64,000 bases of DNA from a virus: the IMG/VR virus record IMGVR_UViG_3300042863_002274; one strand, given 5' to 3'. The stretch's first letter is position 1; each line of letters begins with the position of its first letter. A program made the translations under genes and the position numbers. The notes beneath the pieces were generated by a model. The model was not told where the DNA came from and searched no databases. It was given only the letters and a program-made list of their open reading frames with translations. Shown here in pieces: positions 21,774-49,580 of this stretch.

Positions 21774-22030
21774 CACTCAATCTCGATAGAACAGTAGCCG
21801 ACTGGCTTGTATGTGGATGCGGTAACGAACCGGACATTGATGGTTTCTACGCATGTCTGCCATCAGGAGAGATGGTAGAACCCGTTGCTAACGGTTCTTG
21901 GGATGGTCATTCATACCTCTGCTATCGCTGTGGTTGCATCTACGACATCGCGACACTTGACCAAACCGGAGAAGCCACTACCGAAGTAATGCGTGCCAAC
22001 TACTTACGTGGCGATACTGACACAGAGTAG
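21770..22030 (+). CDS. Zn-finger-like hypothetical protein
   Basis: CGCG...CYRCG; the stop TAG is part of an AGAGTAGATAA motif. Confidence 0.7.
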   Translation: MTLNLDRTVADWLVCGCGNEPDIDGFYACLPSGEMVEPVANGSWDGHSYLCYRCGCIYDIATLDQTGEATTEVMRANYLRGDTDTE

Positions 22031-22161
22031 ATAACCGTCACAAACCCGGGGCTCTCACCACCATCACTGCTCTCAATGTGGGGGAGTAAGAGATAATCCT
22101 TGATAGTTTGTCCTGTGAGTGGTACAGTTCGTAAGTCACCACCAACCGAAAGGGAATCACC

Positions 22162-22485
22162 ATGACAAGCATCATCAACCACCTAGACCGAGTAGAAGCA
22201 CAGGCAACCAACTGGCTTACAGAAAATTATCCGACACTGATTTACAAACTTCTTGCAGGAACGCCATGGGTGTTCACCGCGCTTGGTCTGTATCTCGCAT
22301 CGCTCTCACATCGGAGCCATACCGCCTACGACCTTTTCGCTGGTTTGTTCTTGACCGTCACGGGTACTGTGACGGGAACATTGCTTAGTGTTTGGGCATA
22401 CGGAGAAATCAAAGGCATGCGCCACAATGCACGACGGACGCACCCTTCGTATCCATACAGTGCGCGTAACTCACAGAGCAAGTAA
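22162..22485 (+). CDS. Two-TM membrane protein
   Basis: gaaaggga RBS; hydrophobic segments. Confidence 0.7.
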   Translation: MTSIINHLDRVEAQATNWLTENYPTLIYKLLAGTPWVFTALGLYLASLSHRSHTAYDLFAGLFLTVTGTVTGTLLSVWAYGEIKGMRHNARRTHPSYPYSARNSQSK

Positions 22486-22505
22486 ACAAATTCGGTACAC
22501 GACGT

Positions 22506-22561
22506 AAGCGTCGTGTCGGCACTTACCTATGAGAGTAGATAAGTATCGGCACGGCGCTTTT
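22506..22561. terminator. Long imperfect hairpin between convergent genes, containing a GAGAGTAGATAA copy
   Basis: aagcgtcgtgtcggcacttaccta / tagataagtatcggcacggcgctt, then T-tract. Confidence 0.65.
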
Positions 22562-22567
22562 GCGTTC

Positions 22568-23770
22568 CTATCGGTCTACCTTGATAATGCGTGGGCGCTC
22601 TGTTACTTCGTCTGTGATGTTTCCACCGCGACGATGAGCCTGTATCCATTTTGCACGATGGGTCTTGCGTGATGGGTACCACTGATTACGCCAGTGACCA
22701 CGGACTAAATGAGCAAGCGTTATCTTTGCTCCCGTTCCATCTGTCTCGTCATACAGAGCGCGACGCAATGAAAGTGTGGTGACACTTTTTGCATCACCCT
22801 TACGACCACCACGCGTAGCGCGTCTCCCGAAAGCACGGGGTAGCGCGGTTGTTTCCACATCAACATATTCATCCATCAAGCGAAACAGAGCAACAAGAAA
22901 ACGACGCACCTCTCTGCTTCGTTCCCATGACGATTCGTTCAATTCGTTCTCTGAAAAGTTATCTACTCCACTTGCTTTGCGTTCTATTTCCATTCCATCT
23001 TCACCATAGAAAAACGCGTACATGTCCATTAGTCGTAACGGAGCAATGTGTAGTTGTGGAACTTCTACCGTTAGTCCATTGACAGTAGTTGATACGAGAG
23101 TTCCAAAAACACGAACCTGAATAGCGTTGTCTTTTTCTGAGTTCTTAGAAACATTTTTAGCGAAATCATATTCATTACTGTCCTTGCCGAACCGTCTCTC
23201 TATTTCTAAAAGTGCTTCGGGTGTTACGGCGTCCACGTCAGCCCACGCAAACGCTTGCACTTCCCAATTCTCTGTGCCTAAATAATTGCCGTCTTCATTG
23301 GGTTCATTATCGTTGCGTGTTCCGCTTATTATTGCGCCGTACTTTTTCGCAAGCGCAAATACTTCATCAAAATCTTCAACTTTTATGAGTGACTGTACGG
23401 TTTTGTGCAGTGGGGTTTCCATCACAATAAATCCACACGGGGTAAAAATGTCGGTCTCAAATAAAACTTCATCAGGCATTGTTGCTTCTGCTGTCTTGAC
23501 CAACTCACGCAGGTCATCAGTAAGAAACACGGTGTCACCGAGCGCGATGATTGTGTCGTCTAGTGCGCGATGTACCTCATGATGGACTGCGCCTCTTTCT
23601 GCTTCCCTCTTCAATGTTTCACGGGTCACAATAGATGTATCGCTATCTGCCCACATGGCGCGAAAGTATCCGAGGTGCAAGAGCCTGTCCATCGTTGGGT
23701 GGCTCTCTCGGTATTGCAGATAATCGGTATGCAGGCTATGGGCTAGTGATGCTGTAGGTACTTGTCTCAT
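22568..23770 (-). CDS. Conserved phage hypothetical protein
   Basis: C-terminal HLVRGHWRNQWYPS...WIQAHRRG motif; leaderless start after TTGCAA-17-TACATT. Confidence 0.8.
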   Translation of the reverse strand: MRQVPTASLAHSLHTDYLQYRESHPTMDRLLHLGYFRAMWADSDTSIVTRETLKREAERGAVHHEVHRALDDTIIALGDTVFLTDDLRELVKTAEATMPDEVLFETDIFTPCGFIVMETPLHKTVQSLIKVEDFDEVFALAKKYGAIISGTRNDNEPNEDGNYLGTENWEVQAFAWADVDAVTPEALLEIERRFGKDSNEYDFAKNVSKNSEKDNAIQVRVFGTLVSTTVNGLTVEVPQLHIAPLRLMDMYAFFYGEDGMEIERKASGVDNFSENELNESSWERSREVRRFLVALFRLMDEYVDVETTALPRAFGRRATRGGRKGDAKSVTTLSLRRALYDETDGTGAKITLAHLVRGHWRNQWYPSRKTHRAKWIQAHRRGGNITDEVTERPRIIKVDR

Positions 23771-24639: not shown

Positions 24640-25668
24640 ATGGCTCATCAGATAGAAATCAACAAAGACGGTACAGCACGCATGGCGTATGCGGACCGAC
24701 AGATTCCATGGCACAAGCTTGGGCAGCCCATGAGAGGGCTACAAACGGCAGAAGCAATGCTTGCTGCAGCACAGGCAGATTTCGACGTAGTAACCACACG
24801 GGTAGCCGTATGTGACGACGACGGGGAGCCAATTCGTCAACCGGACGGAACCACAATTCTTGTACCAGACAGCAGAGCAACAGTACGGGTGAACACAGAC
24901 GGGTCGTTTAACGGCCTAGCAACAGTGGGTACTCGCTATGTGGTGCAGCAGAATCGGGAATGTCTCAATTACGCCCTCGACATAGTTGGTGCTTCGGATG
25001 GGGATGCAGTTGTTGATACATGCGGAGTCCTGAGAGACGGATGTGAATTCTTTGCATCTATTGACATGGGTGCGCTAATAATCGACCCAGCAGGAATCAA
25101 TGACTCGATTGAACGTTATCTACTCGTACACAACGGGCATGACGGCAAAACAGCGATTACCTTTGCGAACACGAGTATTCGTGCCGTATGTAAAAACACA
25201 GTGATTGCCGGTGTTTCGTCAGCGAAGCGAGTCTTTACTGCGCGTCACACACGCAATGCAGATAGAGCAATGGAGCAAGCGAACGAAGTTCTCAATATCT
25301 CAACCGAATGGGCTCGCGAGTTCACGCTTACAGCAGAAAAGTTGCTGTCAATAAATGTTCCTGCTTCTTCTCAAATACTTGACAAGACACTGAACCAAGT
25401 ATTCCCGATAAGCAAAGACGCAACAGCACGTCAAGAAACAAACCACAAAGAAGTAACATCATTGGTACGCGCAATTTACGCAAACGACAACAACGCAAAG
25501 AACTACGGGTACAACGGCTGGTCTCTCGTCAACGCAATCGGTGAGTATCTCGACCACTATCGCGAAGCAACACCTACCGAGCGAGCACTCGCTTCTATGA
25601 GTAACAACTCGTGGGTGACACGAGCAAAAGTAAAGGCTCAGGATTATCTATTGTCAGGGGTATCCTAA
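24640..25668 (+). CDS. DUF932 (TIGR03299-like) phage/plasmid protein
   Basis: MAH...PWHKLG...VGTRYVVQQNRE...YLLVHNGHDG...IRAVCKNT...RHT. Confidence 0.85.
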   Translation: MAHQIEINKDGTARMAYADRQIPWHKLGQPMRGLQTAEAMLAAAQADFDVVTTRVAVCDDDGEPIRQPDGTTILVPDSRATVRVNTDGSFNGLATVGTRYVVQQNRECLNYALDIVGASDGDAVVDTCGVLRDGCEFFASIDMGALIIDPAGINDSIERYLLVHNGHDGKTAITFANTSIRAVCKNTVIAGVSSAKRVFTARHTRNADRAMEQANEVLNISTEWAREFTLTAEKLLSINVPASSQILDKTLNQVFPISKDATARQETNHKEVTSLVRAIYANDNNAKNYGYNGWSLVNAIGEYLDHYREATPTERALASMSNNSWVTRAKVKAQDYLLSGVS

Positions 25669-26159: not shown

Positions 26160-28072
26160 GAAAGCTTATCTAGCAAGCTAAGAATCATCTGAGTAGAAAA
26201 ATCAGAGTTATCTACTTCCCCACCGTCAACGGCAGCATTGACCACTGAACGTTTCTTTTGGATAATCTCGTAAATGTCTTCGTCTATGGTTCCAGCAGCG
26301 AGCATGTATGTTGCCGTTACGCTGCCTTTCTGTCCAATTCTGTGCAATCTACTGTAAGTCTGGTCCACGTCAGCGGGTGTCCACGGGAGTTCCACGAATA
26401 AACACTCCTCTGCTGCTGTGAGTGTGTGTCCCGTCTTTGCGGCCTGAATTGATAAAACGATTACGGGTGCGCTTTCGACATCTTCTGTCTGAAATCTGCG
26501 CTTACTCTCTTCGACTTCCTCAACAGACATTCCGCCTTGTATGCGAAGGTTGCCATACTTGCGAGCAAGCTCATCGACAATATCTCGATGGTGAGCAGCA
26601 ACAACAACCTTCTTGCCGTTATCTATGCGGGCGTTTATCCACTCTTCTACGACTTCCATTTTTGCTTTAGCAGCGAGCTTGCGGAGTACAGACAGTCGAA
26701 CCAGGTGTTCGTTCGCCTCTGCTTTAATCATTGCGTGTATGGCAGCGCCGTACGATGGCTTTCCTTGTTCGAGAGCGAGTTGACGTGCTCGTTCTGCGAT
26801 GTACAACAAGATGTCTGTTTCGGCTTTTTTGTATTCTTTCATTGCAGCAGAGCTTCCCTCTACCAGCAGTTTGCTGTGCATTACGGGAGGGAGCTCTGAC
26901 AGCACCTGGTCTTTCGTCCTTCTTATGTAGCACGTTCCTCGGAGGCGTTCGTTCAGTTCGTCGAGATGCGAGTGACCGGTGATGTTCCATTGCCCGAAGT
27001 TGTCCTGATAGGCAGCACAGTAGCGGCGATAAAAACCCCATAGGCCGCCAAAGTCTTTAAGTCTTCCCAGTATTTCCAATTGAGAAGCGTATTCGTTTGG
27101 ACGATTGGTTACCGGCGTGCCAGTGAGACACAATACGAGACCCTCTTTGTGAGCAGACTTGGCCATCTTTACTGCTGCCTTCGTTCTCTGTGCTGTTGGC
27201 GTCTTTGCGTAGTGACTTTCGTCGAAGATGTAAGAACGATGCCCAGTTAGGCGCTTTTCCCAGTGAGCAATATTGCTGTAACCAACAACAACTACGTCAT
27301 ACGAGCCGCGTTCGGGGAAGTCCTTGCGATTAGTTACTGGCACAACCTTTCGATTAGGCAGCCACCGGTTCCATTCTGTTACCCAGTTGAGGACCAAGCT
27401 TGGTGGACAAACAACTACGGCCGGATACGAGTCCGTAACATATTCGAGGGTCGCTATCGACTGGAGAGTCTTACCCAACCCCATGTCGTCTGCGATAAAC
27501 GTACGTCGAGCGCGTGCTGCATACACAACTCCGGCACGCTGATAGGGAAGAAGCTCTCCCTGTAGGCCTACGATGTCAACTTCTGCTTCGGTTGCCCGTG
27601 AGGCCTCAACGAACTCGTTCATTCGCGCCGTTACCTGGTCTGACAGTGCTGCCACAGCAGGGTCTACTACTACATCAAACTTTTCTGCCCACTCAATCGT
27701 GTTAAGAACGGATGATACGGGTGCCTGCCAACAATGTTTATCTGCATTCCACGAAACTGCGGGTATCTGCTTTACAGCTTTGACAACAACGCGCTCATAC
27801 GGAACACGGATAGAAATCATTTCGTCTTCGAGCGAGACTTTTGCTGCTCCTGTTTTGATTTTAGGGGCGTTAAACGTGAGGACGTCGATAGTTACATTGA
27901 AGTCATGCTTTATGGCGAAATCTCGAGCCGCCTCCAGGGACGTAACAGGAACCTTCCAGAGCTTTGTCTGTTTATCCCAACGCGAGCCTTTTATTAGCTT
28001 TAATTCCGACACCTGTTGTGCGTCATATGGAAAATCCAGCACAATCTCGCTTTTATCTAAGTACAACCTCAT
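26156..28072 (-). CDS. SNF2-family (SMARCAL1/HARP-like) helicase
   Basis: LPYQ, ADDMGLGKT, DESH, LTGTPVTNRP, RRTK, ELPWTP...Q...RLHRIGQ; two HARP-like N-terminal repeats. Confidence 0.92.
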   Translation of the reverse strand: MRLYLDKSEIVLDFPYDAQQVSELKLIKGSRWDKQTKLWKVPVTSLEAARDFAIKHDFNVTIDVLTFNAPKIKTGAAKVSLEDEMISIRVPYERVVVKAVKQIPAVSWNADKHCWQAPVSSVLNTIEWAEKFDVVVDPAVAALSDQVTARMNEFVEASRATEAEVDIVGLQGELLPYQRAGVVYAARARRTFIADDMGLGKTLQSIATLEYVTDSYPAVVVCPPSLVLNWVTEWNRWLPNRKVVPVTNRKDFPERGSYDVVVVGYSNIAHWEKRLTGHRSYIFDESHYAKTPTAQRTKAAVKMAKSAHKEGLVLCLTGTPVTNRPNEYASQLEILGRLKDFGGLWGFYRRYCAAYQDNFGQWNITGHSHLDELNERLRGTCYIRRTKDQVLSELPPVMHSKLLVEGSSAAMKEYKKAETDILLYIAERARQLALEQGKPSYGAAIHAMIKAEANEHLVRLSVLRKLAAKAKMEVVEEWINARIDNGKKVVVAAHHRDIVDELARKYGNLRIQGGMSVEEVEESKRRFQTEDVESAPVIVLSIQAAKTGHTLTAAEECLFVELPWTPADVDQTYSRLHRIGQKGSVTATYMLAAGTIDEDIYEIIQKKRSVVNAAVDGGEVDNSDFSTQMILSLLDKLS

Positions 28073-31565: not shown

Positions 31566-31702
31566 CGGGGCTTTCGACCGAAGGGAGAAAGTCACGGAGG
31601 GGGAGACGAGAGATATGTCCGATTGAAATTATTCACAGGCAACGTTGAGCGCAAGCAACAGAGTAGATAACTTTTGGAAGTCTGTACCTCGTGTGGTATG
31701 TT
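31566..31702 (+). promoter_or_regulatory. Regulatory module with SigA-type promoter
   Basis: CGGGGCT, GAGAGATA, AGAGTAGATAACT, TTGGAA(31674)-17-TATGTT(31697). Confidence 0.8.
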
Positions 31703-32075: not shown

Positions 32076-32413
32076 GAGTAGATAACTCCCCGGCATCGTC
32101 TCCCGTCCATGCGAGAAAAGTCTCGTATGGATAGGGAATCCGATAGCCCCGCAACAGTCGGGGCGGAGCGGGGCTCCGTTTTCTGCGCTGGACTTGCCGC
32201 GGACGGGGGTTTGAGAGATAACCAGGGAGCTGGGCGCGGAGCTGGCAAAAAGCCAGGCAACAAGAGTAGATAACGCGTGTTTGTGTTTGTAACGAAACTG
32301 ACGGGTTGCTAAACGCCACTCGTTACAGGCAAAGGGTTTTAGAAGGAAATAAGAAAGTCTGTACCACGCTTTGTACAATTAAAATTAAAAAGCCAAAACA
32401 ACAAGGAGCACAC

Positions 32414-33965: not shown

Positions 33966-33968
33966 GCC

Positions 33969-37909: not shown

Positions 37910-37913
37910 GAAC

Positions 37914-38231: not shown

Positions 38232-38241
38232 TTCACCCGAG

Positions 38242-38506
38242 ACTTATCTACTCTGCTTGCTCTCTCGGGGGTGAGTAGAGTAGATAACTTTTTTCTTGCC
38301 TTGCTTTGGGGGAACAGCCCCGCTGCGCTTGGGTTCGCCCGGGGCTATTGCCCGAAAGGGCAAAGCAGGCGCACACGGGGGAGACGAGAGATAAGTACGG
38401 CGAGGCGCAAGTGAACGGGAAGTGTGTCACCACGCCACAACACAATGACGGTGGTGGAAGAACAGAGTAGATAACTCGGGGAAGTCTGTCCCGTGTGTGG
38501 TACGCT
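38242..38506 (+). promoter_or_regulatory. Complete regulatory module
   Basis: Same element order as 36579-36874; inverted repeat at 38316-38346. Confidence 0.85.
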
Positions 38507-38542
38507 GACGGTGTTCCACTAACACCAATGAAAGGGTACCCA

Positions 38543-39013
38543 ATGGACACAGTAGCAATAGCAGTAGAGATAGAGAGTCAAATACACTCCCTACTCTCAA
38601 AGGGAGACGAGCCAACTCCGTTCGTCATGGAAGGCGCACACCTTTACGGTGTGGATTACACAGCCGAAGGCACGCCGAAACTCATGTTCATTGAGTCTCA
38701 CGCTGATGTGTATGACCTGCTTGACAATGACTACAACGCCTTGGTAGCAAGCGCATACGCTTGGACACTTATCGTCACGACAGGTTGGGCTGCACCACTC
38801 AATCCTGACGGCAACATTGACAAAGCACCTTCACAACACGCAGAGCGTCGTCGTGTTCGTCTGTCTTGTATCGCTAACCGTCAGAGCGTTGCCAGCGTGT
38901 TGCGGTTCGCTGATGAGCCTGATGATGTAATCACAGACGAAGGTAGCGCAAGCGGTTCACTCGCTAACGCAATCCAGCAGTTCGTACAGTCAGGCGCAAC
39001 CAAGAGCAACTAG
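38543..39013 (+). CDS. Conserved hypothetical protein
   Basis: TTGWAAPL...PSQHAERRRVRL; RBS. Confidence 0.75.
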   Translation: MDTVAIAVEIESQIHSLLSKGDEPTPFVMEGAHLYGVDYTAEGTPKLMFIESHADVYDLLDNDYNALVASAYAWTLIVTTGWAAPLNPDGNIDKAPSQHAERRRVRLSCIANRQSVASVLRFADEPDDVITDEGSASGSLANAIQQFVQSGATKSN

Positions 39014-39039
39014 CGCACAGTCCTAAGTTCCCCTAATCG

Positions 39040-39075
39040 GAAGTCCCCGTCAGTCCCCCCCTGACGGGGACTTTC
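39040..39075 (+). terminator. Intrinsic terminator hairpin
   Basis: aagtccccgtcag...ctgacggggacttt. Confidence 0.7.
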
Positions 39076-39360
39076 ACTTATCTACTCTCTTACCAACACG
39101 GCCAGCCTTTCGTCAGAGTAGATAACTTTTCAGCTCGCCGTGTTTCCAACCAATCTGTCGGTTATCTCTCACTCCCCCACAGGCGCACTCTTGGCAGATA
39201 GCCCCGGCAGGAACCTAGCGAAGCGGGGCTTTTCACTCAAAGGGGGAGAAAGCGAACAACGGGGGGATGAGAGATAAGTCGGGGGCAGAACGGTCTCTCT
39301 GTGTTGCGAAAGAATGAGAGTAGATAACTATTTGGAAGTCTGTACTCATCGTGGTACATT
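39076..39360 (+). promoter_or_regulatory. Complete regulatory module
   Basis: Inverted repeat 39200-39230 flanked by inverted GAGAGATAA boxes; TTGGAA(39332)-17-TACATT(39355). Confidence 0.85.
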
Positions 39361-39399
39361 GTGTTTGGCAACAACTGCCATACCTGAAAGGGGTATCTC

Positions 39400-39990
39400 A
39401 TGAAAGTAATAGAAGTAAGCGCTCGCAAGGGCGGAGTAGGCACAAGTACCGTAGCCTGCTCAATCGCATTGGCATTGGGCAAGACCAATCCTGAACGAGT
39501 GTTGCTCATTGACACATCAGCGAACAACGATGACACGCTCATTCTTGGACTGGCTCCGTCATCAGGCGAACAGACATACAAGGACATCACCATCGTGAAT
39601 GCGCCATTTTCCGAGGTGAGCAATCTGCGTGGAGTTCATTACGATTTCGTAGTTATTGACACCGGTCTACTTGGTGGCAAGAAGAACACCTACTTTGACT
39701 ATGTGCCATTCCGTGTAGCAGTGGTTCGCAACTCATACCTGTCATTGCGAGCAGAGGCACTCGAAACCACTCACACTGCTGACGCAGTAGTAGCAATCGT
39801 AGACGCACAGGACGCTCTAACAGCGAAAGATGTGGGTCAGGTTCTCAGACAGAAGGACACCACCATCGTAGAGTTTGACAATCGCACATCTCGTGCCATT
39901 GACGCAGGTCTCTACGGACATCGTGAATCACAATGGGAGTGGGCAGAGTTGTTCAATCAGAGATTCATTCCGTCCTATGAGTTGCCGTAG
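39400..39990 (+). CDS. ParA/MinD-like P-loop protein (short, deviant)
   Basis: KGGVGTST, VLLID, YDFVVIDT. Confidence 0.8.
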   Translation: MKVIEVSARKGGVGTSTVACSIALALGKTNPERVLLIDTSANNDDTLILGLAPSSGEQTYKDITIVNAPFSEVSNLRGVHYDFVVIDTGLLGGKKNTYFDYVPFRVAVVRNSYLSLRAEALETTHTADAVVAIVDAQDALTAKDVGQVLRQKDTTIVEFDNRTSRAIDAGLYGHRESQWEWAELFNQRFIPSYELP

Positions 39991-40127
39991 AAAGAGAGTA
40001 GATAAGTGGTAACAGAAACAGAACCCGATGAATGTCTCTACTGTGGTAGGGACGACCCTGAATCCAACTACACTTGGCATGAATACAATCGTGCCTGGAT
40101 TTGTGAGGACTGTATGGAGGAGCGACC

Positions 40128-40388
40128 ATGGAAGTAATTTTTAAGGATGAATTGGCAGAGTTGATTTGGGAGAATTATTACACTCTCGCTACTACTGCAA
40201 TAGAGGCGCTGCAAATTATTTGGAGCGAGTACGAAAGTATTGCTAATTGGGTCGCTTTAGAACACGATGTGTCCGAGCGCAAATTGCTAGAAACTCTTTC
40301 GCTTCTCGTGGTGAAGGTTGCGTCAATGTCCGTAGCAGACAGACAGACACCCGCCATGGATTATCTCCCCACAAGTAAGAGTAGATAA
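40128..40388 (+). CDS. Hypothetical protein
   Basis: ggagg RBS; stop TAA lies in the motif. Confidence 0.65.
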   Translation: MEVIFKDELAELIWENYYTLATTAIEALQIIWSEYESIANWVALEHDVSERKLLETLSLLVVKVASMSVADRQTPAMDYLPTSKSR

Positions 40389-40391
40389 CTC

Positions 40392-40709
40392 ATGTGGACG
40401 ACTATCGGTATCTATTTCTCTGTCTTGATGTCCTACATTCGTCACGCACTGTTTCATAGAGACCTGATACTGGTCGGGTCTGAATGTCGTGTTCGCTGGT
40501 CGTGGGAGCGCACACCGTCAGTGAGGGTTATCTCATTCGCCCCTGAACCAATGGAGCCATGTGACTTTGACATGTATGGGTGGTCTCTTGATTCAGTGTT
40601 CATGCATGTACCGAGCATGTGGCAGATGCTCTCGTTCGTGAGACGTAGGAGCAACGAGGGACACTCGTTCGTCAGCGTCTCACTTATCTACGCCTCTCTA
40701 TCAGAGTAG
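40392..40709 (+). CDS. Hypothetical protein
   Basis: Bracketed by two motif copies. Confidence 0.6.
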   Translation: MWTTIGIYFSVLMSYIRHALFHRDLILVGSECRVRWSWERTPSVRVISFAPEPMEPCDFDMYGWSLDSVFMHVPSMWQMLSFVRRRSNEGHSFVSVSLIYASLSE

Positions 40710-40925
40710 ATAACTTTCTTTCTTTTTGAGAACAGCCCCGCCATGCTTGGTCCGTCCCGGGGCTCTTGCTGAAACAGCAGAGCAGGATGAACGGGGGGGA
40801 TGAGAGATAAATCCGAAGAACGAAACGAAACCGAGCCGAGACGGAAAGAGAGTAGATAACTCTGTCCAACCCATTCACGGTGGTGGAAGAGGGCTAGGGG
40901 AAGTCTGTGCCACGGGTGGTACGCT
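40703..40925 (+). promoter_or_regulatory. Complete regulatory module
   Basis: Inverted repeat 40734-40764; GAGAGATAA; AGTAGATAA; ACGGTGGTGGAAG; promoter. Confidence 0.85.
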
Positions 40926-40955
40926 GTGTGAAGAAACCTACTGAAAGAGGAAGAG

Positions 40956-41702
40956 ATGCCTAACTGGTGTTACAACTACATGACCATCAAAGGAACAAAA
41001 AGAGAACTCGCCAAGTTCGTCAACGACATCACAGTTGCCGATGTCAAGGTTGAGGGAGACAAATCACGAGTTGTCGTTGAGTACGACCTGAACCAACTCG
41101 TACCACTTGACCCTCGGGCGTCAAAGGAAGTCAAAACCACCACCCCTGACGGAGTAGAAAAAGTATTTACTGCGTTCAGTACCGAAAGTGACGGATTTGA
41201 TGGATACTTAGACGCTGTTGCAACATGGGGTAGTAAATGGGGCGCATGCAATGTAGAGATAGACGACCCAACCTCTAAGGAGAAAAACCTTTCCATGCGT
41301 TACGAATCTGCGTGGAGTCCATGTGATGGTCTAATTTGCAAGATTTCTGCCATGTACCCACAACTAATGTTCGGAGTTGTTTCCACAGAGGAATCCAGCG
41401 CCTTTGTTGCGTGGTCTTTCTTTCATAATGGAGAGGTCATTGAGGAAGGTGGGCGTGACCCCCAGATGCTCACGCCTGAACTTGACGAAAAATGCAAAAA
41501 AGCAAACGACCCTGAAAATCCCAACTTGTCCGAGGACGAGGAAGATTGGTACGAATCGTTTAGTGAATGGGAACATCACTTAGTGGAACTCTGTGATGAC
41601 GAACTTGTAACTGTCATGACCGAATACCCAAAACATCTCGCATACATCAAACGGTGCGAAAAGAAAGGAAAAATGCCACAGCCGTTTATTTCATCAGTCT
41701 AA
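40956..41702 (+). CDS. DUF1281/Api92-like ferredoxin-fold protein
   Basis: MPNWCYN...WGSKW...YESAWSP. Confidence 0.75.
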   Translation: MPNWCYNYMTIKGTKRELAKFVNDITVADVKVEGDKSRVVVEYDLNQLVPLDPRASKEVKTTTPDGVEKVFTAFSTESDGFDGYLDAVATWGSKWGACNVEIDDPTSKEKNLSMRYESAWSPCDGLICKISAMYPQLMFGVVSTEESSAFVAWSFFHNGEVIEEGGRDPQMLTPELDEKCKKANDPENPNLSEDEEDWYESFSEWEHHLVELCDDELVTVMTEYPKHLAYIKRCEKKGKMPQPFISSV

Positions 41703-41741
41703 ATAAGAGTAGATAACTACACAAAAGAAAAGAGAACCCAA

Positions 41742-41969
41742 ATGGGAACTACAAAAAACACACAATCCATGGAAAACATTTCAGAATCAGTACGAACATA
41801 CAGAACCAAGATGGGCTGGTCACAATTAGAACTTGCTAATCGTGCAGGCTTGGACAGAAAAACTGTAAATCGTGTTGAGAACGGACGCTATGCACCAAGC
41901 GTTGAGACCCTACTTCTTGTAGGGGACGCACTTGGAGTGTCCATGAACAGTCTCCTAGGAAACAAATAG
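41742..41969 (+). CDS. XRE-family HTH regulator
   Basis: GWSQLELANRAGLDRKTVNRVENGRYAPS. Confidence 0.9.
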   Translation: MGTTKNTQSMENISESVRTYRTKMGWSQLELANRAGLDRKTVNRVENGRYAPSVETLLLVGDALGVSMNSLLGNK

Positions 41970-42089
41970 TAATGCTGGCATGTAAGGGCTTGTACCGACC
42001 CTTGCCTGTCAGAGTAGATAACAATTTGGAAGTCTGTACCGAGCATGGTATGGTTTCCAGTAACACCACGAGCCTGAAAGGGGCATACA

Positions 42090-42791
42090 GTGAAATCACA
42101 AAAAATAAACAAAGACCTTGATGATGACATCACCAAGATTCTGAAAGACCTTCTTTACAGAAGCGTCTACGCAAAGACAGAAGTTTGCAAGGACGAACCA
42201 ATGTCAGATAATCCACCATTATTCTTGGTTGCTTTTGAGAGTATTGAGGAAAATAACGAGGAACACGAAGCCTGCCTCATCAACCAGCAAGAACTCTCCC
42301 TGTCTAAGCCTTATCAGGTGGCAATGGTTCCGTTGATTCACAAAGAGGACATGTATGACGCTTACGATGATGTTGTTCGCTCACTACCTGTTCGCAAGTT
42401 TGAGTTCATTGCAGTAGTTGTTGAGGGCTACGGCAAAGACCTGTCACAAGAGACAGACCAGTCAGAAGTCAAGAAAATGAACAAAGGTGACTTGGAGAAG
42501 GAATACAAAGAAAACCCATTCACCGATGTTCGTGAAGGACTAATGATGAGTGCCGTTGATTGGAACATGACTGGCGTATGGGGCGTTGCCAACATGTACC
42601 GCTATGACGACACGGGTGTACCGACATTTGATGAGCCGTTCTTTACTTCCTACCCGTATGACGACAATGACGAGTACGGACGCTTGGTTGATGTAATGAT
42701 TGCTACTGCTCAATACATGAACATCGCTACACAGACTCTCAAATACACAGACATACTCAAAAAAGCACCCAAGAGAAATAAAGGAGAGTAG
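42090..42791 (+). CDS. Hypothetical acidic protein
   Basis: Promoter TTGGAA(42026)-17-TATGGT; GAAAGGGG RBS; stop lies in the motif. Confidence 0.75.
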   Translation: MKSQKINKDLDDDITKILKDLLYRSVYAKTEVCKDEPMSDNPPLFLVAFESIEENNEEHEACLINQQELSLSKPYQVAMVPLIHKEDMYDAYDDVVRSLPVRKFEFIAVVVEGYGKDLSQETDQSEVKKMNKGDLEKEYKENPFTDVREGLMMSAVDWNMTGVWGVANMYRYDDTGVPTFDEPFFTSYPYDDNDEYGRLVDVMIATAQYMNIATQTLKYTDILKKAPKRNKGE

Positions 42792-42935
42792 ATAACTCAT
42801 GAATCAAGAAGTAATCGCCCTAGTGGACAAGGCAATAGCCAACTGTTCAGGAAGAGACAATGTGTCATCACATGAAATGATGGACATGCTCTTAGACATT
42901 CGCCAACTACTAAACAAAGAAACGGAAGTACCGGC

Positions 42936-43130
42936 ATGAGAACAAAAACAGACCTAATCGGTAAGCGAGTCAGGCTTGATGCATGCACCGACCCTTACAC
43001 GAAACTACAACACGGAGACGAAGGTGTTGTAATGGACATAGATGACATTGGAACAGTCCATGTACTGTGGGACAACGGCAGCATTCTTGGCTTGATAGAA
43101 GAAGAGGGTGACGCTTTCTCTCTTTTGTAA
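42936..43130 (+). CDS. DUF4314-like protein
   Basis: GKRVRL...DPY...GDEGVV..IDDIGTVHVLWDNGS.LGL. Confidence 0.8.
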   Translation: MRTKTDLIGKRVRLDACTDPYTKLQHGDEGVVMDIDDIGTVHVLWDNGSILGLIEEEGDAFSLL

Positions 43131-43249
43131 GGGTGAGCGTTTCTGATACTCTCTAATAAAATAAAAAATCACCCACTAAGTTTGGAGTAGATAAGTTTCC
43201 CCCTTTCAGGCTTGTCTACTCCATTAGGGTCAAATAAAAAGGAATAAAA

Positions 43250-43738
43250 ATGAACTTCACGATTGAGTTTGTAAATGAAGAGAACAAGCGTATGCATGAT
43301 TCGTTCTACAAGAAATACAAAACAGACAAAGCACGAATGAAGCAGAGTGCAGAGCAATACCAAATGAGTGAGACTGTTCGTGGTCTTTACATCATGGAGA
43401 AGTGGCACAGAGAAGGACGCAACGGAAGTCCAGTAGCAATGCTGAAACATTATTCGCTAGGTACAGATGTGATGTCATCGTTCATAAAAAAGTATTTATC
43501 TACTGTTGTTAGTGACGAGCAAGCCGAGGACAGTAAGCCCGAAAAGCGCAAAGATAAATGGGGAGCATTTGACAAGTGGACTACCGAACACACTGGCGAA
43601 CAATTCTCCACAGACCAACTTGTTGAGATTGCTGGATTCTCATATCAGACGACACTGAAATATGTCAGCGAATCTCCACTGTTCATAAAAATCAAAAAAG
43701 GTTTGTGGCAAGTGGCTGATGTTCAGAGGAAGAAATAA
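43250..43738 (+). CDS. Hypothetical protein, possible C-terminal wHTH
   Basis: aagga RBS; C-terminal FIKIKKGLW. Confidence 0.7.
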   Translation: MNFTIEFVNEENKRMHDSFYKKYKTDKARMKQSAEQYQMSETVRGLYIMEKWHREGRNGSPVAMLKHYSLGTDVMSSFIKKYLSTVVSDEQAEDSKPEKRKDKWGAFDKWTTEHTGEQFSTDQLVEIAGFSYQTTLKYVSESPLFIKIKKGLWQVADVQRKK

Positions 43739-44019
43739 GAGAGTAGATAACTTTCTATTTTTTAGACAATAGCCCCGCTTCGCTTGGTTCCCCCCGGGGC
43801 TGTTGCCCACAGGGGGCGCAGGCACAAGGCGCAGAGAACGGGGGGGTGAGAGATAAATCGGCGCAACGCAAGCGCACCGAGCCGAGCAAGAGGGAAGCGG
43901 AACTGTCCAACACATTGACGGTGGTGGAAGGGGCGCAAACAGAGTAGATAACTCCTCGCCAAACAGAGTAGATAAGTCTGTCAATAGATTAGGGAAGTCT
44001 GTACCGAAGGTGGTATGGT
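43739..44019 (+). promoter_or_regulatory. Complete regulatory module with a tandem motif pair
   Basis: Inverted repeat 43771-43801; caaacagagtagataa twice at 24-bp spacing; promoter. Confidence 0.85.
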
Positions 44020-44059
44020 GAGTTTGTCCAACCAACAACGCTTACAAAGGAGCAATACA

Positions 44060-44791
44060 ATGGATACAGTAACAACCACCCAAGAGGCACTACCGCAGTG
44101 CTGGAAAGATGTCAAGGACGCACTTGACTCAGGAATTGACAGAATTATTCTGTTCGGACCTGCTGGAACAGGCAAGACCTATGCTGGTCTGTCATTCGGA
44201 GACATTGAGGCTGGCGCACACCGCCTAGTCTGCACCGAGGACATGACAAACATGGACGTAACTGGTGGCTTCATGCCATCATCATCAGGTGGCTTCCAAT
44301 GGCTTGACGGCTCTGCTCTCAAAGCATGGAAAGGCAACGGAACCAAAGGTGGTCGTCTCATCGTGGACGAAGTAGATAAGGCTGGTGGCGATGTTTTCGC
44401 AACACTGCTCGCCATGTTGGATTCACCTGAATCCGCAACATTCCAACACCCTGAAAGTGGTGAACTGGTGCGCCCATTGGAAGGCTTCTCTGCTGTGATG
44501 ACCACGAACATTGAGAACATGAGCGAACTGCCAACAGCACTCGCTGACCGTTTCCCAATCCGTGTTCGTATCAACGAGCCACACCCGAACGCACTTCTCC
44601 GCTTGTCTCCTGACTTGCGTGGATACGCAGTCCGTATGGCTGACGGTGGTGAGGCTCGTATCTCATTGCGAGCATTCATGGCTCTTGACAAACTGCGTAA
44701 GGCAGTCGGTATGGAACGAGCATGCCAACTCACATTCGGTAATCGTGCCAAGCAGATTCTTGACGCTCTTGCAGTGGACGGAGTGAAATAG
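44060..44791 (+). CDS. MoxR/CbbQ-NirQ-like AAA+ ATPase
   Basis: GPAGTGKT, LIVDEVD, MTTN, ALADRF. Confidence 0.88.
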   Translation: MDTVTTTQEALPQCWKDVKDALDSGIDRIILFGPAGTGKTYAGLSFGDIEAGAHRLVCTEDMTNMDVTGGFMPSSSGGFQWLDGSALKAWKGNGTKGGRLIVDEVDKAGGDVFATLLAMLDSPESATFQHPESGELVRPLEGFSAVMTTNIENMSELPTALADRFPIRVRINEPHPNALLRLSPDLRGYAVRMADGGEARISLRAFMALDKLRKAVGMERACQLTFGNRAKQILDALAVDGVK

Positions 44792-44793
44792 CA

Positions 44794-46341
44794 ATGGCTT
44801 ACTCACCTGCTATCAACACAGGTACGGGCAAGGCGTTCCCCAGTAGAGTAGATAACTCTGAAAGGGGGGCGCACCGCCCTGAACCTAACATGCTCGGACG
44901 CAAGGACATGGAACACGAACGCTGGACAGTTAGAGATTGTCTGCCCGTTCGTGGCGAGCCTTGCACCGACTTGACCAACCGTGTCATGTTCGCACCATCA
45001 ACCGATGGTGAAATGGAGCGTGTAGTGCGTGGACATGAAATGATGCATGCGAAAATATCTCCGACACCTGAACAGATGACTCAATGGGTAGGACGCAGTA
45101 TTGCTTCCGAGACAGCGATGATTGTTGTAGAGGAATTGCGAGTGAACTACTTGTGTCAAACTGCTGGATTTGATGTCAAGAAGTTTCTGTCTGACGGAAG
45201 TGAATTGGCAACTGGCGAACACCTTGCGAAGTCAAACGATTGGGCAGGCGCAGTTGCTATGTGTATCGCTACTGCGAACACCGCTGGTCACAAGACATTC
45301 CTGAACGGAATCCGCAGGCACAATCGTGAGTGGGGTGAAGCATTGGTGACTATCGGCAAACGAGCAGTGAAAGAAATGCGTAAATCTCACAGTGGACGCA
45401 CACTCGCAAGTACCGACACTTACGAAGGTATCGCTCCATACGGATTCACTCACACCGAGCGTCTTGCAGAATGGGTGGACAGGCTTGCCACATTCCCACC
45501 ACCACCAAAGAACCCAAACCCAAAGGGCAAGGCAGGCGAGGCAAAGGGAGTAGATAAGTCCGAAGGCGAAAGCAAAGAGGAACATCACGCCGAGTACGAG
45601 GAATCCAAAGAGGGTGACAAAGATGGAAACCCACACGGCAAAATCTCTCCTGCACCTGCTGGTGGCGCACACGGTTGGGCTGAACTTATTATCAGTCGTG
45701 AACCAATGCCACGCCACCACTACGGCTCAATGGGCAAGAAGCGCATTGCTACGAACATGGGGCGCAGACCACGCCGACTACACCGTTACATGACTGACCC
45801 TGCGAAGCGTGTCTTTGACAAGACGATTCGTGGCAGTGGTGGAATGGTAATCATTGACGCAAGTGGTTCTATGTCATTCACTACTGAACAGATTGCAGAA
45901 ATCATTGAGAACGCACAAGGCGCAACAGTGGCTATCTATTCTGACCGAGGCAGGAAAGACATGCCGAACATGTGGGTAGTTGCTGACAAAGGCAAGATGG
46001 TTGAGAATGTGGAATACATTGACTACGGACACGGTAACGGCGTGGACTTTCCTGCGATTGAGTGGGGCGTAAAGAATCGCCAGTACAAGAACACACCTCT
46101 TGTATGGGTGACAGATGGTGGAGTCTGTGGAGCGCATGACGGGTTCTCTGAACTGTTGTCAATGCAATGCATTACTTACGCTCGCCAGCACAACTTCATT
46201 GTTGTTCCCCACATTGAGGGAGCGATAGAGCAGTTACGCAATCTGAAAGTGCATGGCAAGGCTCACAGCGTGTATCCTTACATGTTCCACCGCACCTACC
46301 AAAATTACATGGGCGTACCTCTCCCCGAAAAAGAAGAGTAG
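44794..46341 (+). CDS. HExxH metallopeptidase-like plus vWA (MIDAS) protein, CobT-like partner of the AAA ATPase
   Basis: HEMMH...EE; charged linker; IIDASGSM...VTDG. Confidence 0.85.
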   Translation: MAYSPAINTGTGKAFPSRVDNSERGAHRPEPNMLGRKDMEHERWTVRDCLPVRGEPCTDLTNRVMFAPSTDGEMERVVRGHEMMHAKISPTPEQMTQWVGRSIASETAMIVVEELRVNYLCQTAGFDVKKFLSDGSELATGEHLAKSNDWAGAVAMCIATANTAGHKTFLNGIRRHNREWGEALVTIGKRAVKEMRKSHSGRTLASTDTYEGIAPYGFTHTERLAEWVDRLATFPPPPKNPNPKGKAGEAKGVDKSEGESKEEHHAEYEESKEGDKDGNPHGKISPAPAGGAHGWAELIISREPMPRHHYGSMGKKRIATNMGRRPRRLHRYMTDPAKRVFDKTIRGSGGMVIIDASGSMSFTTEQIAEIIENAQGATVAIYSDRGRKDMPNMWVVADKGKMVENVEYIDYGHGNGVDFPAIEWGVKNRQYKNTPLVWVTDGGVCGAHDGFSELLSMQCITYARQHNFIVVPHIEGAIEQLRNLKVHGKAHSVYPYMFHRTYQNYMGVPLPEKEE

Positions 46342-46532
46342 ATAAGTTTTCCCGACAGGGGTGGTGGCTCCGACAGGACACCATCACCCCTGAACGGAGA
46401 CGGTGCATGGAGTTATCTACTCTATGTACCACCACTACCCCAAGCGTAGAAGTTTCATACTCCTTTGATTCTGCGTGAGGGGTGGTGGCAGGGGGATAAA
46501 CAAAATTGACTACTACGAAAAAATGGATTTTT

Positions 46533-46736
46533 ATGACAGAGCCAACTGAATCACAATTACTAGATGACTTGTTCGCAAGTATCACAACCGCAATGCGCTA
46601 CTACTCTGCGATACGAGACGAGATAATCACAGACACATACACGCCACAGAAGGCGTACGAGGACTACGAGAACCTGACATGCAATGAAGGCAACAACATT
46701 GTGTCCGTTCTTGCTGAACTCGCTGATAGGAAGTAG
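46533..46736 (+). CDS. Hypothetical protein
   Basis: ORF. Confidence 0.55.
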   Translation: MTEPTESQLLDDLFASITTAMRYYSAIRDEIITDTYTPQKAYEDYENLTCNEGNNIVSVLAELADRK

Positions 46737-46845
46737 TCATGGAAATACTGCTACTCGTTCTTGCGTTGCTCACAGAGCCTTACACGCTCGTCTCGTTCGC
46801 TATCTGCATGGCAACACTAAGAGTAGATAACTCTTTCTACGCCAG

Positions 46846-47169
46846 TTACTTCTTGCGATTGGCTCCGAAGATATTTGAGTCAAACGAACGCCACACCACA
46901 TACAGTACTGCCAAGCCAAAGGAATCCCACACGCCCACGCTCACGCTCACGAGTCCAGCCGAGTGTGCGATAGCGAGAGCAAGGAACAGCAAGGCAGCAT
47001 GTGTGACAACAAGCAGAATGAATCCAGCAAACACATTTCCTTCTTTTTTGGCATGAGCCCCGCCAGCGGCGGCAACCCTCGGGGCTGTTGGCGTATCTCT
47101 CATAACTCTCGGAAAACTGTTCTTGGCTTTAAAAGAATATTTTCCGTCTTTATCAAATCTGTCATTCAT
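46846..47169 (-). CDS. Two-TM membrane protein
   Basis: Hydrophobic helices; contains an AGCCCCG-N17-CGGGGCT copy. Confidence 0.6.
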   Translation of the reverse strand: MNDRFDKDGKYSFKAKNSFPRVMRDTPTAPRVAAAGGAHAKKEGNVFAGFILLVVTHAALLFLALAIAHSAGLVSVSVGVWDSFGLAVLYVVWRSFDSNIFGANRKK

Positions 47170-47214
47170 TTTTCTGTGCCTAAATCCTATTCACGGTGGT
47201 GGAAGAGCCTGCTG

Positions 47215-47592
47215 CTAGTTAGGCAGTTTCATTTTTTTAACTATTTGATGAACCCTCTGGCGGCTCAAATCAAATTCATCGGCAATCTGCCTAAGGGATA
47301 ATCCCTGAATTCTCATTTGACGAATTGATTCGTTTCTTTCAGTATCGGTTGGAGGACCCGGTTGAAAAGGACCCCACGACCAGCCTGGAATTTGCTCCAG
47401 AACGGAGATACGTGCTGCAGAAAGTTGATTTTTACGATATCTCTGCCGGATGTAACCAACCCAAGCTCCAAGTGAGATTTCTTTTTCTTGATTTTTATCA
47501 ACATAACTTGATGAAATTTTAGAATCTCCGTTTTCGGAAATGTACAGCTCGAGAGCTGCCTTATAAATACTGAATTTTGTACCGTTGTCCAT
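47215..47592 (-). CDS. Helicase-associated (HA)-like domain fused to a sigma70-region-4-like HTH
   Basis: LGAWVGYIRQRYRKNQLSAARISVLEQIPGWSW; GLSLRQIADEFDLSRQRVHQI. Confidence 0.8.
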   Translation of the reverse strand: MDNGTKFSIYKAALELYISENGDSKISSSYVDKNQEKEISLGAWVGYIRQRYRKNQLSAARISVLEQIPGWSWGPFQPGPPTDTERNESIRQMRIQGLSLRQIADEFDLSRQRVHQIVKKMKLPN

Positions 47593-47880
47593 AGATGACA
47601 CACTAGTACGAACGTATGTTCGCATGCAGGAAGAATTACATTTTTTATTTACGGGAATGATTAATATATAGGTTGACAAAAGCAACGGTGGCGGATAAGG
47701 TTACCCTCATGGGATTAGTCACTAACTTAGTTGCTTACAAGCTAGGTAAGTCTCGTGGAAAACGTAAGGAGCGCAGCAGTCAATCAGAAACTGTGGACTC
47801 ACGTGACCCAGACTGCATTAATTATTCAATGTTTTGTCGACAATTCGGCAGCTGTGATGGACAGAAATGCGAGTATTAAT

Positions 47881-48099
47881 ATGAATAACTATCGTGTCCA
47901 AGTAATGGTCGGGGTGGATGTACATGCGTCTACGCCTGAGGAGGCAGGCGGTCTCGCAATTGCTGCAGTAAGAACAGTTATTGAGGAAGACCCTCTCGAG
48001 CCTCATCCAAAACCTTTTTGGGTTTCTGGAATTGTCAGAACTGACGGAGAATCGGCGCTGCCTGGTTACATGGTTTTTAAAGGAATTCTCATCGAGTAG
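47881..48099 (+). CDS. Hypothetical protein
   Basis: ATG 1 nt after the upstream stop. Confidence 0.5.
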   Translation: MNNYRVQVMVGVDVHASTPEEAGGLAIAAVRTVIEEDPLEPHPKPFWVSGIVRTDGESALPGYMVFKGILIE

Positions 48100-48213
48100 A
48101 CGCCTGGTTGTATTTAGATAAATTTATACACGACGGCCACTGGATATCTGTCGAAAAAACGAAAAAATCACGCACGCGGCCCTCGATACGTCGCTTAACG
48201 GAAAAGAGAAAAA

Positions 48214-48672
48214 ATGGAACAATACTGGGAGCCCGCGGCAGGCAAAAACAAAAAGCCAAAAAAGGACGACCTGGTCCAGATGCTGATGAAATCAGACATC
48301 TCGCAGGAAATAGCAGAAGAAGTAGCCACTCAGGTGGGCAGCGGCGATGAGGACAATAACGTTGTTTTTATCTTTACCGACAATAACGAGTACGTAGTAA
48401 CAGGAATTCACGTCCCAGCCGAAGCCTTGGATGGAAACCGCGGTCCAGTACTTATGCGCGGCTCCAATGAAAAGTCGATAACCGCAGCTTTCTCGCGTGA
48501 TTACATCGCCGAGTGTCTTGCCCGGGTCGAATCTGAAGAGGAAAAGCCGGGGCTCAGCGGAGTTTCCGATGCCAGGTGGATTGAGGAATTGGAGAATCTG
48601 GCTGAACTGGTTAGACTGGAAATCCAAACGAACCCGCCCGAGAGCTGGGACGAATTGCTAGCGGGGGAATGA
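48214..48672 (+). CDS. Hypothetical acidic protein
   Basis: ORF with ATGA overlap. Confidence 0.65.
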   Translation: MEQYWEPAAGKNKKPKKDDLVQMLMKSDISQEIAEEVATQVGSGDEDNNVVFIFTDNNEYVVTGIHVPAEALDGNRGPVLMRGSNEKSITAAFSRDYIAECLARVESEEEKPGLSGVSDARWIEELENLAELVRLEIQTNPPESWDELLAGE

Positions 48673-49367
48673 GAGATAAAAAGATGTTGACGGTGGTGGA
48701 AGAGATGGAACCAGGCGAGCCAAGGTCGTGGCAAGAAGCTGCGCAGATTGTGGTTTGTGAGATTTTTGACAGAGTAGATAACGTTGAGAAACATTTTAAA
48801 GAACTTCAAGAATCAGGGATGCTCAGCCAGGCAAGCTCCGCTGCGGGTGTCGAAAAAGACGATTTTTTGAACATTATCCTCGAGGGCCTTAATATTCTGG
48901 ACCTTCAGTTCGAGGGAATGCTGAATAATTCGAAATGGTTCGATTCGGACCCCATGTACTGGGTCGAAGAATGGAAAATTCTTGGCACGTTGGCCGCTGC
49001 GTGCGGTATAAAAAGTGAAAATTTGAATCATTTATCGCCGGCCGCCAATCATCCGGAAATTGAGAATTTTAACTCGTCTTCCGCGGGCTTCTTTGGAAGC
49101 TGGATGCTGCGCGAAGATATCACTGAAACCCTTATCCGTAAGCAAAGGGACTACGGTCACCATAATATTGCTCGGTTTGGACGCCAAGGGATATTGGTTA
49201 GATGTCATGACAAGATGGCAAGACTCAAGAATCTTCAATTATCTAGAGGAGGCGCTGCGCAAAACGAATCAGTCGCCGACACGTACCTAGATATTATAGG
49301 ATATTCAGCAATTGGCATGATGTGGGAGCGCGGCTGGTTTCTGTTAGATTTAACTGAAACAAACTAG
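48669..49367 (+). CDS. Nucleotide-modification-associated (DUF1599/Nmad1-like, MazG-like helical) protein
   Basis: RKQRDYG..NI...DKMARL...ESVADTYLDIIGYS. Confidence 0.75.
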   Translation: MRDKKMLTVVEEMEPGEPRSWQEAAQIVVCEIFDRVDNVEKHFKELQESGMLSQASSAAGVEKDDFLNIILEGLNILDLQFEGMLNNSKWFDSDPMYWVEEWKILGTLAAACGIKSENLNHLSPAANHPEIENFNSSSAGFFGSWMLREDITETLIRKQRDYGHHNIARFGRQGILVRCHDKMARLKNLQLSRGGAAQNESVADTYLDIIGYSAIGMMWERGWFLLDLTETN

Positions 49368-49580
49368 AAAGTATTGACGGTGGTGTATGAACCAGGACAT
49401 TAATCAACTGGGACCCAAGCGCGCAGCTATTGCACGTGCACTAGTGCACAGGGGAATCACTATATGGGAAGGTATCCCGCAGCACATAATCGAAGAGCTC
49501 GAGCGTGCTGGTTATAAAATCAAAAAAAACAAGAAGCTCCGCCGGTCGGAGTAGATAACTTTCCAGAGAGGTACTAAACA

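What the first reader, a model, noticed from the sequence alone, without database searches (positions are those of the whole stretch)
22024..49560. About 60 copies of asymmetric GAGTAGATAA marking a 27-kb domain: stoperator-like system
Seen: about 60 copies here, none noticed in 1-22 kb and only one or two weak ones after 50 kb. Orientation mostly follows local transcription (mostly - in 22.9-30.8 kb, mostly + in 31.6-49.6 kb). Copies sit directly upstream of promoters, at gene junctions and in-frame within genes (RVDN/GVDK/EVDK, including the AAA Walker B DEVDK). Known: mycobacteriophage L5 stoperators are asymmetric, transcription-oriented sites at gene junctions. Inference: one phage protein coats or silences this whole region, or marks it for injection, protection or segregation. 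The sequence is unlike the L5 consensus.
Basis: partly seen in the sequence, partly recalled or inferred. Interest (0 to 1): 0.88.

Follow-up and report, generated by a model that had tools for sequence, protein, structure and literature searches.

The report
Private DnaA-box-like operator array in phage
A lake phage marks its whole early-gene block with about 80 copies of one oriented DNA word; relatives use at least ten other spellings of it, even at the cost of changing their proteins, and more distant relatives have true binding sites of the host replication protein DnaA in the same positions, which suggests a host-read signal taken over by a phage protein that is still unidentified.

Summary
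Confirmed: 56 exact GAGTAGATAA in 22,025-49,558, none elsewhere (chance 0.1), plus 17 GAGAGATAA variants. The word is one slot of a repeated early-promoter cassette in a ~160-kb myophage, probably of Ilumatobacteraceae. It ends 6-8 nt before most promoter cores and follows transcription (47/53).
New from relatives: one phage clade carries it in at least 11 dialects, each confined to the same 16-31-kb early block. Orthologous in-frame copies switch dialect and change the amino acid (GVDK to GVGK), so selection acts on the DNA. Outside the clade, canonical DnaA boxes (two mismatches away; the kind found at host-family dnaA loci) occupy the same cassette slots; the clade has lost DnaA's 11-13-nt spacing.
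Best reading: an operator/stoperator-like array read by a phage protein and derived from DnaA boxes. It is not a Cluster A stoperator member (no integrase; no repressor homologue seen). Repression versus activation is untested. The scan noted similar oriented words in other phages, but no look-alike of this stretch.

The parts
22025..49558 (.). Box domain: early, hyperplastic small-gene block holding all 56 exact boxes and 17 GAGAGATAA variants
   Evidence: same block in complete relatives, 90% of their words within 16-31 kb
31661..31698 (+). Typical promoter-proximal box: box, 7 nt, then promoter core AAGTCTGT-n-TGGTA (weak -35 overlapping its start, extended -10)
   Evidence: 16 cores in the window; 11 of 15 scored have a box or variant ending 6-8 nt upstream. 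Promoter activity is inferred, not shown
38244..38543 (+). Full cassette: back-to-back box pair, dyad GCCCCG-N17-CGGGGC, variant box, ACGGTGGTGGA, box, promoter core, RBS, start of gene 38543
   Evidence: the orthologous cassette in L293 carries canonical DnaA boxes
36582..36830 (+). Second full cassette: box pair, dyad 36658-36686, variant box 36726, GGTGG element 36791, box 36818
43741..44015 (+). Cassette of the AAA/VWA operon with tandem boxes 43942 and 43966; most clade members checked have 1-4 boxes of their own dialect here
35933..35942 (+). In-frame box (GVDK); GVGK in G005, GVDK in G001
45548..45557 (+). In-frame box in the VWA gene (GVDK); GVGK in G005, SLDK nearby in G006
44846..44855 (+). 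In-frame box in the VWA gene (RVDN); QVDK in G001, GLDK in G006
22959..22968 (-). In-frame box (GVDN); GVGN in G005
26208..26217 (-). One-mismatch in-frame box near the end of the SNF2 helicase gene (EVDN); SVGN in G005
25116..25125 (-). Antisense box inside DUF932, made by synonymous codons; kept in G001
32146..47085 (.). Eight copies of the fixed-spacer dyad GCCCCG-N17/18-CGGGGC plus four variants; shared with relatives; the spacer does not pair consistently
36791..51089 (+). Nine copies of ACGGTGGNGGA, all on one strand; same word in all 11 genomes checked, inside and outside the clade
57775..58299 (+). Fast-evolving MarR-like winged-helix gene; weak binder candidate (present outside the clade too; window and G001 share the word but not the helix)
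20882..21247 (+). Clade-restricted 121-aa helical protein at the left edge of the domain; no informative fold match; weak candidate
14831..15889 (+). RmlA-like gene whose best genome matches are Acidimicrobiia/Ilumatobacteraceae: basis of the host inference

Best explanation
The word is the binding site of one sequence-specific, phage-encoded DNA-binding protein that controls the early-gene block as a unit. It binds directly upstream of the -35 region of most early promoters (operator position) and at gene ends and inside genes in the direction of transcription (stoperator or road-block position). Most likely it shuts the early block down, later in infection or against a co-infecting relative. 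The sites most likely descend from host DnaA boxes that the wider phage family keeps in the same cassette slots; one clade replaced the host reader by its own, after which site and reader drifted into clade-private dialects. Shown: enrichment, confinement, geometry, dialects, DNA-level selection, slot equivalence.
For: 56 exact copies against 0.1 expected, none outside the block. Fixed position 6-8 nt before the promoter core in 11/15 window promoters and 36/97 over eight genomes. At least 11 dialects sharing the 3' core G(A/G)TA(A/G), forming one clade (support 0.995). Orthologous in-frame sites switch with dialect and change residues. V-D/G-K/N tripeptides use the box codons in 26/31 cases inside the block and 0/24 outside (p 8e-11). 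Box positions differ at 3.9% between the window and G002, against 11.1% in coding and 13.6% in intergenic DNA. The word is at background in 151 host-family genomes, and paired variants are not enriched in 401 class genomes. Canonical DnaA boxes: 33, 35 and 31 copies in the early block of G007, G008 and G174, and in the same cassette slots in L283, L290, L293 and L306, which were fetched by protein and not by pattern. Lineage-specific stoperator consensus with cognate repressors is the known precedent (PMC6550527).
Against: No binder was identified: no DnaA domain IV in the phages, no HTH or RHH that co-varies with dialect, no DNA-binding candidate in a branch-specific residue scan. No integrase or resolvase in five complete relatives, so the immunity pressure that drives stoperator divergence is not shown. 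The position just upstream of a weak -35 also fits an activator. Descent from DnaA boxes rests on position and a two-base resemblance; the intergenic DNA is too diverged to align, several intervening lineages have neither kind of box, and G008's nearer relatives lack boxes in the stretches held.
Confidence: 0.5

Rival explanations
1. The same phage-encoded binder is an activator (class II position, abutting -35) that makes weak-consensus early promoters fire; the extra sites raise its local concentration or keep the block free of host silencing proteins.
For: The extended box abuts the -35 hexamer; the -35 elements are poor; 2-4 tandem boxes precede the AAA promoter in most dialects. DnaA-stimulated transcription in phage lambda is cited in PMC3985674.
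Against: Does not explain oriented sites at gene ends and inside genes, nor back-to-back pairs between units. Cores at 21289 and 40901 have no adjacent box. Sister lineages use related cores without such boxes.
Confidence: 0.2
2. Host DnaA still reads the words as low-affinity boxes; the array titrates DnaA (datA-like), couples early transcription to host state, or serves as an origin.
For: Two mismatches to TTATCCACA with the same flanks; canonical boxes and an oriC-like array in relatives; DnaA-ATP can bind two-misfit boxes (PMC5835720).
Against: Each genome holds one exact non-canonical word and almost no canonical boxes near cassettes. Host domain IV is nearly invariant and host boxes are canonical at 34 dnaA loci. 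DnaA-type spacing is lost: tandem 11-13 nt in 22/35 canonical pairs against 1/55 in the clade. The conserved C of the consensus is changed.
Confidence: 0.1
3. The word is a handle for DNA transport or protection (first-injected segment, partitioning, or a packaged protein that coats the block) and has no direct role in transcription.
For: Sharp confinement to one 16-31-kb block in every genome; in-frame sites tolerated; DnaA boxes mark the T5 injection-stop region (10.1101/866236); giant module polyproteins could carry a reader.
Against: Fixed phasing to promoter cores and orientation that flips with transcription. Genome ends are unknown. No reader module was found in the polyproteins.
Confidence: 0.1
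4. The word is a passive part of a mobile promoter cassette (PeSL-like), homogenised by recombination, with no reader.
For: The cassette is reiterated. 13 of 34 alignment breakpoints between the window and G002 lie within 25 nt of a box, against 13.6% expected (p 3e-4, not corrected for the intergenic bias).
Against: Isolated in-frame copies share no flanks, arise by substitution and change amino acids with dialect; codon test. Gene conversion cannot plausibly homogenise lone 10-mers. Shuffling at cassettes is probably a real side effect.
Confidence: 0.07

Closest known systems
Operators/stoperators of Cluster A mycobacteriophages (L5 gp71, Bxb1, TipsytheTRex; PMC9283540, PMC6550527)
   Same: Asymmetric 10-14-bp sites, many copies, oriented with transcription, both at promoters and at gene junctions, distinct consensus per lineage, actinobacterial host.
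   Different: 50-110 sites confined to one early block instead of 20-30 genome-wide; frequent in-frame copies and inverted pairs; most promoters carry one; 150-170-kb myophages with no integrase found; no repressor homologue seen; sequence resembles the DnaA box.
DnaA boxes (TTWTNCACA; oriC, datA, dnaA promoter; PMC5835720)
   Same: Two mismatches, same flanking bases; relatives hold exact boxes in the same slots with 11-13-nt spacing, as at host-family dnaA loci.
   Different: The conserved C and final A are changed, dialects differ by lineage, spacing is lost, and no domain IV reader is encoded.
DnaA boxes of the phage T5 injection-stop signal (10.1101/866236)
   Same: DnaA-type boxes in a phage early region.
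   Different: T5 has 8 canonical boxes in one non-coding patch, and their role is a hypothesis. Here dozens of variant boxes spread over about 27 kb of genes.
PeSL cassettes of T4-type phages (PMC2839356)
   Same: Reiterated early-promoter cassettes in a hyperplastic region, with indels bounded by cassettes.
   Different: PeSLs are consensus sigma70 promoters plus a stem-loop, with no oriented word selected inside genes.
DNA uptake sequence dialects of Neisseriaceae (PMC3630211)
   Same: Short asymmetric word with a conserved core and lineage dialects, each uniform within a genome.
   Different: DUS are genome-wide, bacterial and read during transformation. An analogy of evolutionary pattern only.

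Membership tests
Cluster A operator/stoperator system | Many asymmetric ~13-bp sites | tested here: met
   56 exact copies, extended consensus of 13 nt
Cluster A operator/stoperator system | Orientation follows transcription | tested here: met
   47/53; transcription units inferred from ORFs
Cluster A operator/stoperator system | Lineage-specific consensus | tested here: met
   At least 11 dialects
Cluster A operator/stoperator system | Sites spread over the whole genome, mostly not promoter-associated | tested here: not met
   96 of 98 sites in one 40-kb block of complete G001; most promoter cores carry a box
Cluster A operator/stoperator system | gp71-type two-domain repressor | tested here: inconclusive
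   No match for the window candidates in PDB, Pfam or PHROG; not every protein of the genome was tested
Cluster A operator/stoperator system | Temperate life cycle (integrase or parABS) | tested here: inconclusive
   No tyrosine or serine recombinase in five complete relatives; a ParA/MinD-like gene at 39400 leaves a plasmid-like state open
Cluster A operator/stoperator system | Repressor-dependent, polar block of elongation | not testable with these tools
   Needs reporter or in vitro transcription
DnaA box | Match to TTWTNCACA | tested here: not met
   Two mismatches; 0 canonical boxes in the window. Met in relatives G007, G008 and G174
DnaA box | 11-13-nt tandem or back-to-back spacing | tested here: not met
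   1/55 tandem pairs in the clade against 22/35 in canonical relatives
DnaA box | Same word at the host origin | tested here: not met
   34 host-family dnaA loci carry canonical boxes or none, never the variant; the true host species is not known
DnaA box | Bound by DnaA domain IV | not testable with these tools
   No phage domain IV found; host binding needs EMSA
PeSL cassette | Reiterated early promoter cassette in a hyperplastic region, at indel boundaries | tested here: met
PeSL cassette | Consensus sigma70 promoter plus stable stem-loop terminator | tested here: inconclusive
   -35 is weak; the dyad folds only modestly (z -3.0 to +0.8) and has a fixed 17-nt spacer more like a protein site

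The most novel reading that the evidence does not exclude
A family of freshwater actinobacterial myophages wires its early promoters to the host initiator DnaA, and one clade has privatised the DnaA box: a phage protein of unrecognised type reads mutated boxes, coats a 25-30-kb block, and has diversified into at least 11 orthogonal dialects without any integrase-based lysogeny. This would be a natural series of orthogonal DNA-address systems derived from a host replication signal.
Probability: 0.35. Interest if true: 0.82.

Novelty: new variant of a known kind. Interest (0 to 1): 0.66.

Why it matters
If right, stoperator-like domain control exists outside temperate Cluster A mycobacteriophages, and it can evolve from a host signal (the DnaA box). 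The complete genomes give a ready test set: host DnaA should bind G007, G008 and G174 promoters but not the clade's, and one phage protein per dialect should. The concerted respelling of 50-100 sites, including amino-acid-changing ones, between phages that are 85-90% identical in core proteins is a clear case of site and reader co-evolving.

Tried and rejected
Host variant-DnaA idea: rejected for the genomes sampled. Phage DnaA domain IV: none by Pfam in seven records nor by a host-built profile against 22,299 ORFs. HTH/RHH candidates do not co-vary with dialect. The branch-specific substitution scan G001 versus G005/G010 gave no DNA-binding candidate. Folding 20882 gave a helical bundle with best Z 5.5, uninformative; 57775 is MarR-like. 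Polyprotein modules shared by the clade are an exonuclease, a zincin-like domain and unknowns, with no reader evident. Hairpin reading of the box (4-5-bp stem): not required, since G at +10 breaks it in 16/56 copies. The enriched word in G009/G013 is start-associated on the other strand, and that of G012 is collagen codons; both were excluded. The words of L275, L276, L294, L299, L300, L306, L311 and L315 are promoter -35/spacer elements, not this box. Rfam: only a tRNA. No RNA holder listed, which says nothing about expression. Laid contigs gave flat depth and short-sided joints, not used as evidence of ends or circles. Three literature searches found no description of this motif or phage group. 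The back-to-back spacing statistic (16/22) is biased, because some canonical loci were found by that pattern; the 12-nt tandem period is visible in G007, which was found by protein. No whole genome was held for the window; G001 served as proxy. The tree is FastTree on 8 concatenated genes, rooted arbitrarily on G009.
Full report
Observation. The word GAGTAGATAA occurs 56 times, all between 22,025 and 49,558, against a shuffle mean of 0.10. Only three one-mismatch copies lie outside. The consensus extends to (A)GAGTAGATAA(C/G)T, and a one-base-shorter form adds 17 copies in the same block. The window is part of a large phage: the VWA protein is encoded, identical, on a 160-kb contig, and complete relatives of 150-170 kb carry head, tail and baseplate genes. 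RmlA matches and WhiB genes point to Acidimicrobiia, probably Ilumatobacteraceae; this host is inferred.

Anatomy. The block is a run of small early-type genes separated by a reiterated cassette. In full form it reads: back-to-back box pair, fixed-spacer dyad GCCCCG-N17-CGGGGC, G-rich run with the variant box, ACGGTGGTGGA, box, promoter core AAGTCTGT-n-TGGTA, RBS, start codon. The box ends 6-8 nt before the core in 11 of 15 window promoters and in 36 of 97 over eight genomes, so the extended site abuts a weak -35. Other copies overlap stop or start codons or lie in frame. Orientation follows the hand-drawn transcription units in 47 of 53 cases.

Dialects. Relatives found through DUF932 and the AAA protein carry other spellings in the same block: GGTGTAGGTAAG (G005, G010), GGTAGATAAG (G170), AATAGATAAG (G169), AATAGATAAC (G171), ACTAGATAAG (G006) and more, at least 11 in all. 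In each long genome 90% of the copies fall in 16-31 kb; complete G001 has 96 of 98 in one block. The dialect-bearing phages form one clade (support 0.995). The promoter core, the dyad and the GGTGG element are shared more widely, so only this slot is respelled within the clade.

Selection is on the DNA. At orthologous in-frame positions the word changes with the lineage and changes the residue: GVDK becomes GVGK and VDN becomes VGN in G005; RVDN becomes GLDK in G006. These are substitutions, not insertions. V-D/G-K/N tripeptides use the box codons in 26 of 31 cases inside the block and 0 of 24 outside. Box bases differ at 3.9% between the window and G002, against 11-14% elsewhere in the block. 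A passive repeat cannot explain this, although indels do cluster at cassettes, as for PeSLs (PMC2839356).

Link to DnaA boxes. The reverse complement is two bases from TTATCCACA. Outside the clade, G007, G008 and G174 hold 33, 35 and 31 canonical boxes in the same early block; in G007 and G008 they sit about 8 nt before their own promoter core, and G174 has an origin-like array. Sister lineages fetched by protein alone (L283, L290, L293, L306) have canonical back-to-back pairs in the same cassette slots, in L293 ahead of the orthologue of gene 38543. Host-family dnaA loci use canonical boxes and a nearly invariant domain IV; the window's word is at background in 151 family genomes. Canonical boxes in the relatives are spaced 11-13 nt in 22 of 35 tandem pairs, clade boxes in 1 of 55. 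I infer that the relatives use host DnaA, and that the clade's reader is a different, larger-footprint protein that is phage-encoded because its specificity tracks phage lineage. Descent from DnaA boxes is likely but not shown: the flanks cannot be aligned and the boxes are patchy on the tree.

Not found. There is no DnaA domain IV. A fast-evolving MarR-like gene (57775) and a clade-restricted helical protein (20882) remain weak candidates. The gene may lie outside the window.

Mechanism. A site that abuts -35 at most promoters and recurs, oriented, at gene ends and inside genes is the layout of an operator/stoperator array (PMC9283540, PMC6550527), and lineage-specific consensus is typical of such systems. 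I give repression of the early block by a phage protein 0.5, activation 0.2, host DnaA 0.1, transport or protection 0.1, passive cassette 0.07. It works like a stoperator system but is not filed as a member: it is confined to one block, mostly promoter-linked, shows no gp71-type repressor among the proteins tested, and five complete relatives lack an integrase.

Verdict. A real, strongly selected, apparently undescribed variant of a known kind (oriented operator array). Its most interesting features are the dialect series and the probable origin from host DnaA boxes. Binder and function are untested. Interest 0.66.

Noticed in passing
L516:15350-15980 (G174, 115.35-115.98 kb): OriC-like array of about 16 canonical DnaA boxes at 11-12-nt spacing inside the early block of a distant family member; similar clusters in G007 near 12 kb and in L467, L409 and L469. 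Suggests host-DnaA-dependent origins or titration sites in these phages.
   Followed up: partly
window:36791-51089: ACGGTGGNGGA occurs 9 times on one strand, and 7-11 times with near-strict polarity in all 11 genomes checked; often preceded by TTG to give a -35-like hexamer. Likely the site of a conserved regulator such as HA-HTH 47215; it also resembles GNTGGTGG Chi (from memory).
   Followed up: partly
window:32146-47085: Dyad GCCCCG-N17-CGGGGC with fixed spacer, 8 copies; spacer length varies by lineage (16-19). More like a dimer-binding site than a hairpin.
   Followed up: partly
L275, L276, L294, L299, L300, L306, L311, L315, upstream of the AAA gene: In non-clade relatives the -35/spacer part of the early promoter is itself lineage-specific, a second dialect system.
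   Followed up: no
window:518-9547: 3009-aa polyprotein cut by nine [RK]LSSG motifs into modules (GNAT, exonuclease, zincin-like, pentapeptide repeats); relatives have two or three such giants with shuffled modules, one fused to a prohead protease, ArdC and a helicase.
   Followed up: partly
window:51106-51980: Short replication-initiator-like protein (C-terminal part only) next to a helicase-loader-like gene; no origin-binding domain evident, which would fit reliance on DnaA or on the box reader.
   Followed up: partly
window:14831-18254: Four-gene dTDP-rhamnose (rml-like) cluster of host type in the phage.
   Followed up: no
L015:8300-9800 (G002, about 42-44 kb); G014 near 24 kb; G007 near 12 kb: Low-complexity tracts of 3-4-nt repeats at the edge of the box domain in some relatives, where the window has only a GC-rich dyad at about 20,330-20,410; a possible genome end or origin.
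   Followed up: no
window:44060-46341: MoxR-type AAA plus VWA-like pair conserved across the family inside the early block, under the promoter with most boxes.
   Followed up: no
window:48669-49367: DUF1599 nucleotide-modification-associated gene at the right edge of the domain; relatives also encode PAPS-reductase-like and ParB-like proteins (recognised by eye), hinting at DNA modification.
   Followed up: no
window:14161-14237: Single tRNA-Met(CAT).
   Followed up: no
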